NCBI GenBank assembly: GCA_032430995.1
Contig: GCA_032430995.1_3952.1
Strand: one strand, 5' to 3'
From: a phage
Length of the DNA stretch: 64,000 nt
The translations under genes were made by a program, and so were the position numbers. Below, piece after piece: positions 5,673-9,210 of this stretch. Every line of letters begins with the position of its first letter. Positions within the stretch are counted from its first letter, which is position 1. Below the pieces are notes generated by a model. The model was given only the letters and a program-made list of their open reading frames with translations, was not told where the DNA came from and made no database searches.

Positions 5673-5684
5673 GGTTAAGATACA

Positions 5685-5705
5685 GGCTCCTTCGGGAGCC
5701 TTTTT
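5685..5705 (+). terminator. rho-independent terminator
   Basis: GGCTCC-TTCG-GGAGCC hairpin plus T5. Confidence 0.7.
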
Positions 5706-5724: not shown

Positions 5725-6072
5725 ATGACATTTAAAGAGTTCTGTCAAGCTACTTTCATAATTGTTTTCTTAGTTGGGGCAGGTGTCTGGGGAGGATACT
5801 CTTACAGAGACTACCAAGTTGCTGAAGCTGAGTTAAGCAATGAGAAACTAATAAGTGTTGCTAAAGATGCTTATCAGGAAGGTTTAGCCACACTGAGCAC
5901 CAATTACAAAAATGATTTGAAAGATGTGCTTGCTAAGAATAAGCATACAAAAGAGGTACTAACATATGAAAAAACTAAGCCAGAGTTTTATAATGTTTGT
6001 GTTACTGATAATTATGTCAGGGTGTTCAACGAACAAAGTGAACAGTACATTCAAAAACTCCCAAGTAAGTGA
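5725..6072 (+). CDS. membrane-anchored protein (N-terminal TM helix, coiled-coil-like)
   Basis: 115 aa; hydrophobic N-terminus FIIVFLVGAGVWGG; 3' end overlaps a lipoprotein ORF in +1 frame. Confidence 0.5.
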   Translation: MTFKEFCQATFIIVFLVGAGVWGGYSYRDYQVAEAELSNEKLISVAKDAYQEGLATLSTNYKNDLKDVLAKNKHTKEVLTYEKTKPEFYNVCVTDNYVRVFNEQSEQYIQKLPSK

Positions 6073-6235
6073 GGGTGACAAGTACACTCAAGAAGAATCA
6101 CGGTATATCATCAAAGGTAACACAGGCAGTGATGTAGCAGCAGCACTTGAGTTCTACCGTGACGGCTTTTACCAGTGTACAATTAAAGCTAATAACCTTA
6201 TTGACATGATTTTATTAGGAAATAAACAGCAATGA
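5966..6235 (+). CDS. lipoprotein (lipobox IMSGC)
   Basis: 89 aa; signal peptide ending LLIIMSGC; start embedded in 3' end of upstream ORF. Confidence 0.45.
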   Translation: MKKLSQSFIMFVLLIIMSGCSTNKVNSTFKNSQVSEGDKYTQEESRYIIKGNTGSDVAAALEFYRDGFYQCTIKANNLIDMILLGNKQQ

Positions 6236-6501
6236 CAGAGAATGAAGATACTTTTTACGTAGAAGGGTACTTACTGTTACCGCGACCAAAAGAAACTTAT
6301 ATGCGAATTGACTTCATACCAACCATTATGGATAATGTGATGTGTCATATCTTTATGCAGGGTGTCACAGCACAGCTTAAGTATGTTGGTAAAGAGTGCA
6401 AAATAAAGGTTGACACTCATCCAGAAATCAAAGAGAATCACTACACATGGTTCTTACCAGACTCTAAAGAAATCTTAGCAGTTCTTAAAACGAGGAAATG
6501 A
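6232..6501 (+). CDS. hypothetical protein
   Basis: 89-aa ORF, start/stop overlap with neighbours. Confidence 0.5.
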   Translation: MTENEDTFYVEGYLLLPRPKETYMRIDFIPTIMDNVMCHIFMQGVTAQLKYVGKECKIKVDTHPEIKENHYTWFLPDSKEILAVLKTRK

Positions 6502-6812
6502 TTATGCAATTCCAGCCAACAAATCGTGGATTTTCTTATGCAGAATTTAAAGATGCTAAAGGGGAAATTTGTACTTTACAAGAGAGTTCATCATACGAAC
6601 CATGTATCTGGTTAGGTGCTAAAGAGGTCTCTGTTCAGTACCTAGATAATGGCTGGAAAACACTTGATATCCCAGCATTAGTAGGTAAAGACTTTGTAGG
6701 TAATCAAAGAATGAAGCTCAATCAAGAACAGGTAAAAGAATTGTTGCCGTACCTTCAATACTTTGCTGAAAATGGTGAATTACCAACAGAGGAACTTACA
6801 AATGCAGATTAA
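6498..6812 (+). CDS. hypothetical protein
   Basis: 104-aa ORF, ATGA start/stop overlap. Confidence 0.5.
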   Translation: MIMQFQPTNRGFSYAEFKDAKGEICTLQESSSYEPCIWLGAKEVSVQYLDNGWKTLDIPALVGKDFVGNQRMKLNQEQVKELLPYLQYFAENGELPTEELTNAD

Positions 6813-7128
6813 TGGAAGAGACTTTGTAGCCGTTTACTACGAGAAAGGTAAAGAAGTTGGCGTAGCGCAAGTATCTTATGGCAATGGTGGGTGGCTATAT
6901 GGAACAATCGCAGTAGTTGGAACGAGAAGTGATACAAAAACTTTTAAAGATTGTGTTGACCTTCTTGAAGAATCCATTCAGAATCATTGGTGTCTGATAT
7001 GGATGACTGACAACGAAGTGATAGAACGCTTCAAAAAGATTGATATCAACATTGATAGTATTGAGCATGTTGATTTATATGAGCTAACTGAGAAGGTAAA
7101 CTATGAGAGTAATTCTAGCCAGAGATAA
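6802..7128 (+). CDS. hypothetical protein
   Basis: start moved to ATG 6802 (MQINGRDF) with GAGGA RBS; track gave 6763. Confidence 0.45.
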   Translation: MQINGRDFVAVYYEKGKEVGVAQVSYGNGGWLYGTIAVVGTRSDTKTFKDCVDLLEESIQNHWCLIWMTDNEVIERFKKIDINIDSIEHVDLYELTEKVNYESNSSQR

Positions 7129-7330
7129 AAAGACACGGAAACTCATCCGGTCAGCAGTATTCATTGGAAGAAATGAAGTCATCCCGTTTACAGCAAACGA
7201 TGTGATAGCCTACAGGAAAAACTTAGTGTTTAGTGATTGCTTGCGTGGCTTCATCTCCCAACCGTTGGAAGACTTTAAAAGCCGTTGTGGTAAAGGTATC
7301 ATCATTCAAGAGGCAATTATCAATGGCTGA
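7103..7330 (+). CDS. hypothetical protein
   Basis: 75-aa ORF with GAGAAGG RBS. Confidence 0.45.
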   Translation: MRVILARDKKTRKLIRSAVFIGRNEVIPFTANDVIAYRKNLVFSDCLRGFISQPLEDFKSRCGKGIIIQEAIING

Positions 7331-7523
7331 CTTCTGCAAAGACTGTTCTATCGAAATGTTCGGACGTGATACAGGTGACTTAAAAGGTCTTATCACTGAA
7401 GATGACTTTAAAGCTGGTTATGCAATGCCAGTAATCTGTGAAGGCTGTGGGTGTATCTGGGTAGACCACGAAGGACAACGTGTAAAACCTTCAGAAGACA
7501 AAGAATCTTGGGAGAGATGTTAA
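7323..7523 (+). CDS. small Cys-rich protein (putative zinc ribbon)
   Basis: internal ATG 7323 (MADFCKDC...CEGCGC) overlapping upstream stop. Confidence 0.4.
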   Translation: MADFCKDCSIEMFGRDTGDLKGLITEDDFKAGYAMPVICEGCGCIWVDHEGQRVKPSEDKESWERC

Positions 7524-8309
7524 ATGGGTATTGTAAAAATAATTAATGGTGATATCTTTGCCGCATTTGATAAAGGTAAGTTTGACATCATCGGTCACGG
7601 TTGCAACTGTATGAACTTAATGGGTGCAGGTATCGCTGACAAGATTTCTAAACTTTACCCAAAAGCGTATGAGACCGATACAGAAGTTTATCTGTATGCA
7701 GGTGGTATAGGTCACAAACCCTGTGAAAATTTACTAGGTAATTTCTCTGTAGCACGTTTAAAACAAGGTCGTATAGCTAATCTTTACACTCAGCTTAAGA
7801 CTGGTAAAGATGCCCGATACAGTGCTTTAGAGTCATCTTTGAAACAGCTTAACAGATACTGTGAAGTTAACCAGTTGAAGAAAGTTGGTTTACCTATGAT
7901 TGGTGCAGGTATTGGTGGGCTGGACCCTCAAGCTGTCACAGTTATCATCAATCAGGTGATGAAGAGTGTAGATGTTTATCTGTATGTCTATGAAGGCGAG
8001 ATGTACCACAAGTTACGCTCAGGTTGGAAGAACTACTGTGAACCAGAATACTTTGCAGGTGTAGCAGTGTTCACGGATAACGCAGTTACCCTCTTCAGAC
8101 GAAGAAAAGGTAAGATACATCAAAGTAACCCTCCGGTTGAAAAGATGTCTCTAGGTAATGCTCTAGTTACCCACCTGTCGAAGAGCAATCACAGAATGGC
8201 TGTGACATTTGGTAGTGATGCAGAAGCTTATATCTATGCAAGAACTGATGAGGATATCGAGGCAATCTTCTCTTCACCAGAAGTTACCTTCTTAGACGCA
8301 AAGAACTAA
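7524..8309 (+). CDS. macro-domain protein (ADP-ribose binding/processing)
   Basis: N-terminus IINGDIFAAFDKGKFDIIGHGCNCMNLMGAGIADKI resembles the macro-domain Gly-rich core. Confidence 0.55.
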   Translation: MGIVKIINGDIFAAFDKGKFDIIGHGCNCMNLMGAGIADKISKLYPKAYETDTEVYLYAGGIGHKPCENLLGNFSVARLKQGRIANLYTQLKTGKDARYSALESSLKQLNRYCEVNQLKKVGLPMIGAGIGGLDPQAVTVIINQVMKSVDVYLYVYEGEMYHKLRSGWKNYCEPEYFAGVAVFTDNAVTLFRRRKGKIHQSNPPVEKMSLGNALVTHLSKSNHRMAVTFGSDAEAYIYARTDEDIEAIFSSPEVTFLDAKN

Positions 8310-8381
8310 GAAACTCTGTAGAATATTCACAATAGACTAAGCCTTTCTTATCTGGTAAATTTTTCAGGTAAGGAGGGCTTT

Positions 8382-8563
8382 TTCATTTCAGAATTGTGCA
8401 GGTAGAGTTCTGTAGAGAAATCTGTAGAGAGAATTTTGAACTCCAAAGAGAAAATTCATTTTCAAACTGTGCAGGTAATCTCCAAAGAGCTTTTTCATTT
8501 TCAAAACGTGCAGACCCCGCTCAGGTCGGGCAAGAAAAATCATTTTAGAATTGTGCAGGTAGG
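8382..8563. repeat. four direct copies of a 22-23 bp repeat (TTCATTTTCARAAYTGTGCAGGTA)
   Basis: copies at 8382-8404, 8456-8478, 8495-8516, 8540-8563; followed by C/CT-rich tract 8585-8618. Confidence 0.7.
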
Positions 8564-8737
8564 TTTTTATAGACAGCCAGCCCAACACCTCTCCCCCTCT
8601 TACTCCCCCTCTCCCCAAAAGTCAATAGAAAAATTTGTAGCGGATTGAAAAATAATTCTTGATTTGCGTTCTGTTTTGTGGTAGTCGTGTGCGCACGTTT
8701 CATTACAGTTTTTCCAAAAATATTTTTAAAATTTTTC

Positions 8738-8829
8738 TTGACTCTTTGAACGGGGTTATCTAGTATTTGCATCAACGGGGAGGGAATGACCTTCCCCACT
8801 AAATAAAGTCCTAAACTGGAGATTCAAAA
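8738..8829 (+). promoter_or_regulatory. early promoter + 5' stem-loop + conserved leader cassette (type A)
   Basis: TTGACT-17-TAGTAT, hairpin GGGGAGGGAATGACCTTCCCC, leader CCACTAAATAAAGTCCTAAACTGGAGATTCAAAAATG. Confidence 0.6.
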
Positions 8830-9210
8830 ATGGCATACCGTGCACCTAAATTCATCAACAAAGACAACTTTCGCAACGCACTGGAGAAGTCACTTGATGA
8901 GAATTTTAAAGGTAACGTTATTGTTGTTCACTCGTTCAATTTCAAGTATGATATTAACGGGAATAAAATCAACCATTACACGGCGACAATGCTAGATGGT
9001 ACTCTTTCAAGTGAAAAAGCCATTTTACATGCACTTGCTGGACGTGGTAAAAACCTGATAAGATGCGATAAGAGACGTTATCAGGGTGGCGCATATGGTT
9101 ACGATGATGCTGTTTATCATCTTGAAAATATGGGCTATCAAGTAGAAAAAGCTGGAGTGTCTCAAATAATCGGTAGTGATGGTTATGTAACAATCTTCAA
9201 AATTAACTGA
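8830..9210 (+). CDS. hypothetical protein (cassette gene)
   Basis: 126-aa ORF directly after conserved leader. Confidence 0.6.
   Translation: MAYRAPKFINKDNFRNALEKSLDENFKGNVIVVHSFNFKYDINGNKINHYTATMLDGTLSSEKAILHALAGRGKNLIRCDKRRYQGGAYGYDDAVYHLENMGYQVEKAGVSQIIGSDGYVTIFKIN

What the first reader, a model, noticed from the sequence alone, without database searches (positions are those of the whole stretch)
7524..8309. Early-region macro-domain protein
The N-terminus matches the macro-domain Gly-rich ADP-ribose-binding core (IINGDIF ... GHGCNCMNLMGAGIADKI). In a lytic phage early block this is a plausible counter to host ADP-ribosylation-based immunity or NAD-derived signalling, though a housekeeping role cannot be excluded.
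Basis: partly seen in the sequence, partly recalled or inferred. Interest (0 to 1): 0.45.

Follow-up and report, generated by a model that had tools for sequence, protein, structure and literature searches.

The report
Phage macrodomain with extra orphan domain
This Felix-O1-type phage gene encodes a genuine ADP-ribose-binding macro domain related to phage T4's anti-DarTG2 factor Tk.4/AdfM, fused to a roughly 100-residue domain found only in this phage lineage, so it is most likely an ordinary counter-defence enzyme with one unexplained add-on.

Summary
Window 7524-8309 (+) is a 261-aa ORF, and its first ~157 residues are a macro domain: Pfam PF01661 32.9 bits against a cut-off of 22, AlphaFold pLDDT 85.5, and best structural matches TARG1 and DarG with TM about 0.8.

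The window is a Felixounavirus. The protein is identical to Escherichia phage HY02 gp013. The gene is effectively a core gene of enterobacterial Ounavirinae, sits in a conserved position downstream of rIIA-rIIB, and is usually annotated "phosphatase".

Its macro domain is 34% identical over the full length of T4 Tk.4 and falls in the same PHROG. A 2025 preprint named Tk.4 "AdfM" because deleting it sensitises T4 to DarTG2. DarG is the only match in PADLOC and NCBIfam.

Two qualifications:
- **Missing catalytic lysine.** This clade carries a nearly invariant Gln where DarG and TARG1 have their catalytic Lys, so it is not a DarG in the strict sense.
- **Orphan C-terminal domain.** Residues ~158-261 form a confidently predicted beta-rich domain with no detectable relatives outside this fusion. 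It evolves faster than the macro domain (dN/dS 0.24 against 0.03), and its function is unknown.

Interest is modest.

The parts
7524..8309 (+). Complete CDS, 261 aa plus stop: a Tk.4/AdfM-type macro domain fused to an Ounavirinae-specific C-terminal domain
   Evidence: ORF list and translation. 100% identical to HY02_013. phrog_335 E 2.4e-112 over aa 1-260.
7524..7994 (+). Macro domain, aa 1-157
   Evidence: Pfam PF01661 at 32.9 bits. Foldseek matches to TARG1 and DarG with TM about 0.8. 34% identity to T4 Tk.4 aa 2-152. dN/dS about 0.03.
7596..7637 (+). Loop 1 / catalytic region, H25-G-C-N28-C-M-N-L-M-G34-A-G36-I-A38
   Evidence: N28, M33, G36 and A38 are invariant, and H25, C29 and G34 nearly invariant, across the Tk.4 clade. 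N28 aligns with PhiKZ AdfM N23, whose N23A mutation reduces activity.
7779..7793 (+). N86-L-Y-T89-Q90 motif. Q90 occupies the position of DarG K80 and TARG1 K84.
   Evidence: The alignments agree. Q90 is nearly invariant in the clade, and DarG and PhiKZ AdfM have FPTK. K80 and K84 are catalytic according to the review PMC8120803.
7890..7925 (+). Loop 2, L123-P-M-I-G127-A-G129-I-G-G132-L-D134 (diphosphate-binding Gly-rich loop). G131 aligns with TARG1 D125.
   Evidence: Invariant columns P124, G127-I130 and G132-D134 in alignment A1. Alignment to TARG1.
7995..8306 (+). C-terminal orphan domain, aa 158-261: a linker helix (aa 158-167), six to seven beta strands (aa ~179-239) and a terminal helix (aa 242-249)
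7510..7516 (+). Shine-Dalgarno-like GGGAGAG, 7 nt upstream of the ATG. The upstream ORF's TAA stop (7521-7523) abuts the start codon.
   Evidence: Read directly from the sequence.
8339..8380 (+). Terminator-like hairpin followed by a T run, 30 nt after the stop codon. It closes the gene run 5725-8309.
   Evidence: Consensus scan: 17-pair stem, then TTTTCATTTC. Terminators are annotated here in KhF3 and XTG1.

Best explanation
The gene encodes a two-domain counter-defence protein.

**N-terminal domain.** It is a TARG1/DarG-branch macro domain of the phage Tk.4/AdfM clade. Most likely it binds ADP-ribose attached to phage DNA by a host DarT2-type ADP-ribosyltransferase (thymidine-linked, on single-stranded DNA) and hydrolyses it. 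Replication can then proceed despite DarTG2-type toxin-antitoxin defence.

**C-terminal domain.** This is a ~100-residue beta-rich domain confined to the Ounavirinae lineage. It is a lineage-specific accessory module, perhaps for targeting or partner binding. Its role is inferred only from being selected and always fused.

**Shown here:** the ORF, the macro fold, membership of the Tk.4 clade, conservation of the binding loops and of Asn28, strong purifying selection, conserved synteny, and the orphan status of the C-terminal domain.

**Shown by others:** T4 lacking tk.4 becomes sensitive to DarTG2. The distantly related PhiKZ AdfM removes DarT2-made ADP-ribose from DNA in vitro.

**Inferred:** that this protein has the same substrate and role, that a clade with Gln instead of the catalytic Lys is catalytically active, and any function for the C-terminal domain.
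For: **Macro fold and family**
- Pfam Macro is above its cut-off.
- The model is confident, and TARG1 and DarG are the top structural matches.
- DarG is the only match in PADLOC and NCBIfam, and the query scores higher than T4 Tk.4 does.
- 34% identity to T4 Tk.4 over the whole of that protein, E 3e-24, and both are in phrog_335.
- The clade shares the motifs HGCNC, MGAGIA, NLYTQ and IGAGIGG.

**Experimental support from relatives**
- T4 tk.4 = adfM is required for resistance to DarTG2 (preprint 10.1101/2025.11.20.689424).
- PhiKZ AdfM de-ADP-ribosylates DarT2-modified DNA, and its N23 corresponds to N28 here (PMC13309987).

**Selection and distribution**
- dN/dS is 0.026 for the macro domain, with zero non-synonymous against 14-22 synonymous differences in several pairs.
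- The full-length protein is present in 258 phage records, against 257 records whose major head protein is at least 80% identical.
- Synteny downstream of rIIB is conserved even at 32-36% identity.

**Context**
- No ADP-ribosyltransferase is annotated in a relative's genome, and nothing DarT-like is in the window. The enzyme therefore faces a host writer, not a phage one.
- SCO6735 is a precedent for an active TARG1-branch macrodomain that lacks the Lys/Asp pair.
Against: - No experiment exists for any Felixounavirus, and no paper links DarTG to this genus.
- The T4 evidence is genetic and comes from a preprint. No enzymology exists for the Tk.4-type clade.
- Q90 replaces the Lys whose mutation inactivates DarG, and G131 replaces TARG1 D125. 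Any catalysis must therefore use another route.
- PhiKZ AdfM, the biochemically proven enzyme, is only 24% identical and is of the Lys type.
- Macro domains are promiscuous. One clade member is fused to a cREC_REC domain, which is predicted to process soluble ADP-ribose derivatives.
- The N-terminal 60 residues also resemble the ADP-ribose-1''-phosphate phosphatase Poa1p.
Confidence: 0.55

Rival explanations
1. The macro domain acts on soluble ADP-ribose derivatives, not on DNA adducts. It would hydrolyse or sequester O-acetyl-ADP-ribose, ADP-ribose-1''-phosphate or its cyclic phosphate, or ADP-ribose-based immune signals such as those of Thoeris. That would place it in the phage's NAD/ADP-ribose toolkit.
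For: - The historical annotations are 'phosphatase', 'A1pp motif' and 'Poa1p-like'.
- The N-terminal 60 residues match Poa1p (6lfq-6lfu).
- One clade member (P0026) is fused to cREC_REC PF20274, 30.8 bits against a cut-off of 27.
- Iyer et al. 2022 argue that phage macro domains mainly target low-molecular-weight ADP-ribose derivatives (PMC9503650).
- Relatives encode NAMPT and PRPP synthetase a few kb away.
Against: - Defence-oriented libraries return only DarG.
- The closest characterised homolog, T4 Tk.4, has a DarTG2-specific phenotype.
- No Tpt1/KptA or RNA ligase, which would generate ADP-ribose-1''-phosphate, is annotated in the relative's genome.
- The Poa1p similarity covers only aa 1-60.
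Confidence: 0.2
2. It reverses ADP-ribosylation of RNA or protein rather than DNA. Examples are mRNA modification by CmdTAC-type systems, or host protein ADP-ribosyltransferases. The C-terminal domain would provide target selection.
For: - TARG1-branch macro domains remove ADP-ribose from acidic residues and from nucleic-acid ends (review PMC8120803).
- TARG1 is the best sequence and structure match.
- The loss of the DarG-type Lys leaves substrate specificity open.
Against: - No homolog of this clade has been tied to RNA or protein substrates.
- The T4 phenotype is DarTG2-specific in the screen reported.
- The charge of the C-terminal domain is not conserved (pI 4.8-9.7), which argues against a generic RNA- or DNA-binding module.
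Confidence: 0.13
3. It is a non-catalytic ADP-ribose reader. Without the catalytic Lys, the macro domain only binds ADP-ribose or ADP-ribosylated targets, and the C-terminal domain carries out the effect, for example by shielding, recruitment or toxin binding.
For: - Q90 replaces DarG K80 / TARG1 K84, and G131 replaces TARG1 D125.
- Mutating K80 inactivates DarG.
- Non-enzymatic macro readers exist.
- The extra domain is always fused.
Against: - The single-domain T4 Tk.4 has the same Gln and is sufficient for the DarTG2 phenotype.
- Asn28, which is catalytically important in PhiKZ AdfM, and His25 are conserved.
- SCO6735 lacks the pair and is still active.
- A dN/dS of 0.03 is typical of an enzyme core.
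Confidence: 0.08
4. It is the eraser partner of a phage-encoded ADP-ribosyltransferase, as might be imagined for T4 Alt/ModA/ModB, and tunes the phage's own modification of host proteins.
For: T4 encodes both ADP-ribosyltransferases and Tk.4 (established knowledge, mentioned). Macro-plus-writer pairs exist in some phages.
Against: - No ADP-ribosyltransferase or sirtuin is annotated anywhere in the 87-kb genome of a close relative.
- The neighbours of the gene have no Pfam matches.
- The closest cellular and plasmid homologs are orphans as well.
Confidence: 0.04

Closest known systems
T4 Tk.4 = AdfM (anti-DarT factor Macrodomain), phrog_335
   Same: - Same PHROG.
- 34% identity across the whole of Tk.4.
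- Same motif set: HGCNC, MG(A/S)G, NLYTQ, IGAGIG.
- Both are orphan phage macro domains with no adjacent toxin.
- DarG is the only defence-library match for both.
   Different: - Tk.4 is a 155-aa single domain. This protein has an extra ~100-aa C-terminal domain that maps to phrog_335 profile positions 206-312, which T4's protein does not reach.
- The genomic neighbourhoods differ: next to vs/tk in T4, downstream of rIIA-rIIB here.
- The anti-DarTG2 phenotype has been shown only for T4.
DarG2 antitoxin of DarTG2 (NCBIfam NF048014, PADLOC DarG; structures 5m31, 5m3e, 5m3i)
   Same: - The macro domain belongs to the same TARG1/DarG branch.
- 25% identity, E 4e-09, to a B. thuringiensis DarG2.
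- Foldseek TM about 0.79.
- The Asn and both Gly-rich loops, including GGLD, are shared.
- Both have a two-domain architecture with the macro domain first.
   Different: - NCBIfam score of 48 against a cut-off of 250.
- The catalytic Lys (TK motif) is replaced by Gln.
- The C-terminal domain is unrelated to DarG2's DarT-binding half (hhalign probability 0.2%).
- There is no adjacent darT.
PhiKZ gp104 AdfM (chimallivirus DarG2-like macrodomain)
   Same: A phage orphan macro domain that counters DarTG2. Its catalytic Asn (N23) aligns with N28, and the GGLD loop is shared.
   Different: - Only 24% identity, E 3e-04.
- It is of the DarG type, with FPTK Lys.
- It is single-domain and is imported into the phage nucleus.
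Human TARG1/OARD1 (4j5q, 4j5r, 4j5s)
   Same: It is the best PDB match by sequence profile (E 3.8e-11) and by fold (E 7.5e-09, TM 0.77-0.82). It has the same compact macro core without N- or C-terminal MacroD extensions.
   Different: The catalytic pair Lys84/Asp125 corresponds to Gln90/Gly131 here. TARG1 acts on Glu/Asp-linked protein ADP-ribose and on OAADPr.

Membership tests
Macro domain superfamily (Pfam PF01661) | Profile match above the curated gathering score | tested here: met
   32.9 bits against a cut-off of 22, E 6.7e-08, aa 25-141 covering profile positions 2-117 of 118.
Macro domain superfamily (Pfam PF01661) | Three-layer alpha/beta macro fold | tested here: met
   AF2 model with pLDDT 85.5. 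221 PDB chains match at E <= 0.001, and every one of the 50 top-ranked matches listed is a macro-domain chain or a design built on one, with TM 0.66-0.82 normalised to the target.
Macro domain superfamily (Pfam PF01661) | Gly-rich ADP-ribose-binding loops 1 and 2 | tested here: met
   M33-G-A-G-I-A38 and I126-G-A-G-I-G-G-L-D134 are invariant or nearly invariant in 19 homologs.
Macro domain superfamily (Pfam PF01661) | Binds ADP-ribose | not testable with these tools
   Needs ITC, thermal shift or a co-crystal.
Phage Tk.4/AdfM clade (phrog_335) | Assignment to the same profile family as T4 Tk.4 | tested here: met
   Query E 2.4e-112 and T4 Tk.4 E 1.3e-65, both to phrog_335.
Phage Tk.4/AdfM clade (phrog_335) | Clade signature H-G-C-N-C ... 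N-L-Y-T-Q ... I-G-A-G-I-G | tested here: met
   Present in the query. H25, N28, T89 and Q90 are invariant or nearly invariant in 16 of 16 non-DarG clade members.
Phage Tk.4/AdfM clade (phrog_335) | Stand-alone single-domain protein of about 150-185 aa | tested here: not met
   The protein is 261 aa, with a separate folded domain at aa 158-261. T4 Tk.4 is 155 aa.
Phage Tk.4/AdfM clade (phrog_335) | Protects the phage from DarTG2 | not testable with these tools
   Shown only for T4. No data exist for Felixounavirus.
DarG antitoxin (NCBIfam NF048014 equivalog) | Score above the equivalog cut-off | tested here: not met
   48.1 bits against a cut-off of 250. Only model positions 4-154 of 338 are matched.
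DarG antitoxin (NCBIfam NF048014 equivalog) | Catalytic Lys of the TK-G-G signature (K80 in T. aquaticus DarG) | tested here: not met
   Gln90 aligns with the Lys in the alignments that cover this position. The role of K80 is taken from PMC8120803.
DarG antitoxin (NCBIfam NF048014 equivalog) | C-terminal DarT-interacting domain | tested here: not met
   hhalign of the C-terminal profile against a full-length DarG2 from a darT2-darG2 locus gives probability 0.2%. The DarG HMMs match only their macro part.
DarG antitoxin (NCBIfam NF048014 equivalog) | Encoded next to a darT toxin gene | tested here: not met
   tblastn with DarT2 finds nothing in the window. The neighbours have no Pfam match.
TARG1/OARD1 | Catalytic pair Lys84 / Asp125 | tested here: not met
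   The pair aligns with Gln90 and Gly131. The pair is defined in PMC8120803.
Poa1p-like ADP-ribose-1''-phosphate phosphatase | Full-length similarity to Poa1p | tested here: inconclusive
   Sequence matches cover only aa 1-60 (E 5.8e-05 with the profile). The fold match to 6lfr is full length, with TM 0.72. Phosphatase activity is not testable here.

The most novel reading that the evidence does not exclude
The Ounavirinae-only C-terminal domain is a new kind of toxin-neutralising or targeting module. By convergence it would give the phage protein the same two-pronged design as the DarG2 antitoxin: a macro eraser plus a domain that binds and blocks the ADP-ribosyltransferase. Alternatively it could retarget the eraser to a different ADP-ribosylating defence. 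Its fast but still constrained evolution would then reflect tracking of variable host toxins.
Probability: 0.18. Interest if true: 0.6.

Novelty: new variant of a known kind. Interest (0 to 1): 0.33.

Why it matters
Felix-O1-type phages are widely used for Salmonella and E. coli typing, biocontrol and therapy. Knowing which host defences they can neutralise helps predict host range.

If this gene is the Ounavirinae counterpart of T4 AdfM, DarTG2-type systems should not restrict these phages. The gene would also be a ready-made tool for rescuing DarTG2-sensitive phages.

The Tk.4 clade lacks the lysine considered essential in DarG and TARG1. Its enzymology would show how a macro domain can cleave a base-linked ADP-ribose by another route.

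The always-fused orphan domain is a small, tractable case of a lineage-specific add-on to a counter-defence enzyme.

None of this overturns current understanding. It extends a recently described counter-defence family.

Tried and rejected
**Attempts to identify the C-terminal domain**
1. Sequence relatives. A profile search of aa 158-261 against 1.84 billion representatives gave 11 hits. The real ones are the same fusion or truncated fragments of it (P0032, P0036). The rest are PQQ/BamB-type and Sortilin-type beta-propeller proteins, a retroelement polyprotein (RVT_2) and a PAS-domain protein, rejected as biased beta-hairpin similarity.
3. Homology to DarG2's DarT-binding domain (hhalign probability 0.2%), to T4 AdfA gp61.2 (0.2%) and to the cREC extension of P0026 (0.1%): all rejected.
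4. A generic nucleic-acid-binding role: not supported, because the charge is not conserved (pI 4.8-9.7).

**Context and partners**
5. A conserved multi-gene module: rejected. The neighbours have no Pfam hits. The abutting Cys-rich upstream ORF is not conserved in Arno18 or in the P0019 contig.
6. A toxin partner next to the closest plasmid or cellular homologs: none found.
7. A phage-encoded ADP-ribosyltransferase partner: none is annotated in a relative's genome.

**Other checks**
8. Recent horizontal acquisition: GC content matches the flanks, and synteny is conserved down to 32% identity.
9. Positive selection on the C-terminal domain as a whole: not seen, with omega 0.24. Site-specific tests were not possible with eight sequences.

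Full report
**Observation**

Window 7524-8309 (+) is an intact 261-codon ORF, and the opposite strand is closed by stops. A Shine-Dalgarno-like GGGAGAG lies 7 nt upstream of the ATG, and the TAA stop of a 66-aa upstream ORF directly abuts the ATG. A terminator-like hairpin follows 30 nt after the stop codon (8339-8380). A second hairpin at 5684-5701 marks the start of the same tightly packed gene run.

**Identity of the window**

The 2-kb region matches 235 phage records at megablast level. Nearly all are Felixounavirus or close relatives infecting Escherichia, Salmonella, Shigella and Citrobacter. The protein is 100% identical to HY02_013 of Escherichia phage HY02. The DNA differs from HY02 by 18 synonymous changes, so the window is a different isolate. 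In public records the gene is called 'hypothetical protein', 'putative phosphatase', 'macro domain-containing protein' or 'O-acetyl-ADP-ribose deacetylase'. The UAB_Phi87 record annotates its copy of the gene as 'similar to bacteriophage Felix O1 FelixO1p025'.

**The macro domain is real**

- Pfam Macro scores 32.9 bits against a cut-off of 22.
- A profile built from 19 full-length homologs reaches TARG1 (E 3.8e-11) and the DarG macrodomains of M. tuberculosis and T. aquaticus (E 7.3e-09 and 3.1e-07).
- An AlphaFold2 model built on that alignment has mean pLDDT 85.5 and pTM 0.84.
- Foldseek places TARG1 and DarG first, with TM 0.77-0.82 on the target. Coronavirus and alphavirus macro domains and Poa1p follow.
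- All of these matches cover only aa ~1-165.

**Which macro domain**

The domain is 34% identical (E 3e-24) to T4 Tk.4 across the whole 155-aa T4 protein, and both fall in phrog_335. tblastn finds the N-terminal domain in 2798 phage records, including the tk.4 locus next to vs in T4-like phages.

In the defence-oriented libraries the only match for both the query and T4 Tk.4 is DarG: PADLOC E 2.8e-13, and NCBIfam antitoxin_DarG E 9.4e-13, which is far below the equivalog cut-off because only the macro half matches.

The literature gives this a function:
- The HIDEN-SEQ preprint found tk.4 as the single T4 gene depleted on a DarTG2 host. A clean deletion sensitises T4 to DarTG2, and the authors renamed the gene adfM.
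- Earlier work had noted that T-even phages must carry an unknown anti-DarTG2 factor.
- Independently, PhiKZ gp104, also called AdfM, was shown in vitro to remove DarT2-made ADP-ribose from DNA, with N23A reducing activity.
- PhiKZ gp104 is only 24% identical to the query, but its N23 aligns with the universally conserved N28 here.

**Not a DarG in the strict sense**

I obtained genuine DarG2 sequences from darT2-darG2 loci on plasmids. Alignment shows that DarG2 and PhiKZ AdfM carry VNxVGVMGxG, FPTK and LGCxNGGLD, whereas the query, T4 Tk.4 and all 14 other clade members examined carry HGCNC...MGAG, NLYTQ and IGAGIGG.

The Lys of the TK motif is DarG K80, whose mutation inactivates the enzyme, and it corresponds to TARG1 K84 (review PMC8120803). 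Here it is a nearly invariant Gln (Q90). TARG1 D125 corresponds to G131.

So the Tk.4 clade is a distinct sub-family of the TARG1/DarG branch, and it must work without the canonical lysine. SCO6735, a TARG1-branch macrodomain that lacks the pair and is still active, is a precedent.

**The C-terminal domain**

*Distribution and structure.* Only 258 of the 2798 phage records cover at least 80% of the protein. Residues ~158-261 are predicted with pLDDT 82-89 in the full model, as a helix, six to seven strands and a terminal helix. The domain folds similarly when modelled alone (pLDDT 78.6).

*No relatives found.*
- An exhaustive profile search of 1.84 billion representatives returned 11 hits. The real ones are the same macro fusion or fragments of it, and the others are propeller-blade and other unrelated long-protein noise.
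- The viral structure library returned only its own family.
- Profile-profile comparisons with DarG2's DarT-binding half, T4 AdfA and a cREC extension were all negative.

*Evolution.*
- The domain evolves about twice as fast as the macro domain (mean pairwise identity 30% against 58%), and its charge is not conserved (pI 4.8-9.7).
- It keeps a small conserved set: N170, P174, F177, G179, D232 and Y236.
- Among eight Felixounavirus genes, dN/dS is 0.026 for the macro domain and 0.244 for the C-terminal domain. The domain is selected but permissive.

*Age of the fusion.*
- It is present in Felixounavirus, Mooglevirus, Suspvirus and the Pectobacterium Arno/Wc4 phages.
- 258 records carry the full-length protein, and 257 records have a major head protein at least 80% identical.
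- Metagenomic carriers at 32-36% identity keep the gene in the same slot, 5-6 kb downstream of rIIA-rIIB.
- Erwinia relatives match only over the macro domain.

The fusion is therefore old and vertically inherited in this lineage.

**Context**

The neighbours have no family assignment. The closest plasmid or cellular homologs are orphans without a toxin partner. No ADP-ribosyltransferase is annotated in a close relative's genome, which does encode NAMPT, PRPP synthetase and an 'NAD synthetase'-like protein just outside the window. GC content matches the flanks.

The 'early' label is unverified. One annotation places a lysin and a spanin in the same block, and the overlapping pair 5725-6072 / 5966-6235 has a lipobox.

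**Mechanism and rivals**

The best-supported reading is an AdfM-type eraser of DarT2-made ADP-ribose on phage DNA (confidence about 0.55). The C-terminal domain would be a lineage-specific accessory of unknown role.

The rivals are:
- Action on soluble ADP-ribose derivatives. This is supported by the Poa1p-like N-terminus, by the cREC fusion in P0026 and by the argument of Iyer et al..
- Action on RNA or protein adducts.
- A reader-only role, given the missing Lys.
- An eraser for a phage-encoded writer, for which no writer was found.

**Verdict**

The gene family is well known and widely annotated. Two things are not described in the literature I could search: the always-fused orphan C-terminal domain, and the clade-wide Lys-to-Gln substitution. 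I rate it a new variant of a known kind, of modest interest.

Noticed in passing
window 8383-8558: There are four direct copies of a 19-nt motif (TCATTTYMRAANYGTGCAG) between the terminator-like hairpin and the next gene. The motif occurs nowhere else in the 64 kb (expected 0.15 by chance). The same cluster is conserved in Salmonella phage SLAM_phiST56 (L003:8860-9040). These could be regulator sites or iterons, but the function is unknown.
   Followed up: partly
window 8310-8830, compared with L003:8787-9791: The intergenic gap after the macro gene is about 483 bp longer in many relatives (KhF3, XTG1, SLAM_phiST56). The extra DNA is a small ORF cassette that begins with a duplicated RBS/start sequence (AACCTTAAACTAGGAGATTCAAAAATGGCAT).
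   Followed up: partly
window 7524-8309, compared with L001:7001-7786 (HY02): The protein is identical to that of HY02. However, all 18 synonymous DNA differences lie in codons 1-157 and none in codons 158-261, which suggests a recombination breakpoint inside the gene.
   Followed up: no
P0009 cluster (Salmonella phage Si3 and others): Phage genomes of ~86-94 kb, including Salmonella phage Si3 and vB_SenM-pSJ21, carry an allele only 42% identical to the window's protein (53% in the macro domain, 21% in the C-terminal domain). This indicates allelic replacement at this locus.
   Followed up: partly
window 7323-7523: A 66-aa ORF with two CxxC pairs (zinc-ribbon-like) has its stop codon directly against the macro ATG. 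It is conserved in Mooglevirus Michonne. An unrelated 63-aa CxxC...CxxC ORF sits in the same position in a distant metagenomic carrier, but nothing comparable is present in Arno18 or in the P0019 contig.
   Followed up: partly
window 5725-6235: There is an overlapping pair of ORFs resembling an i-spanin/o-spanin pair. The second ORF has a lipoprotein signal (LLIIMSGC). One relative annotates the first as an Rz-like spanin and has a lysin upstream. All of this lies in the same terminator-bracketed block as the macro gene, so the 'early' label is doubtful.
   Followed up: no
just upstream of window position 1 (L016:18863-21572 in SLAM_phiST56): Relatives encode nicotinamide phosphoribosyltransferase and ribose-phosphate diphosphokinase immediately before rIIA, and an 'NAD synthetase'-like gene further away. 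This looks like an NAD+ salvage set. None of these genes is inside the window.
   Followed up: partly
P0026 (L017:1250-2269): A metagenomic member of the Tk.4-type macro clade is fused to a cREC_REC domain (PF20274, 30.8 bits against a cut-off of 27). It is a different, independent C-terminal fusion in the same macro clade.
   Followed up: partly
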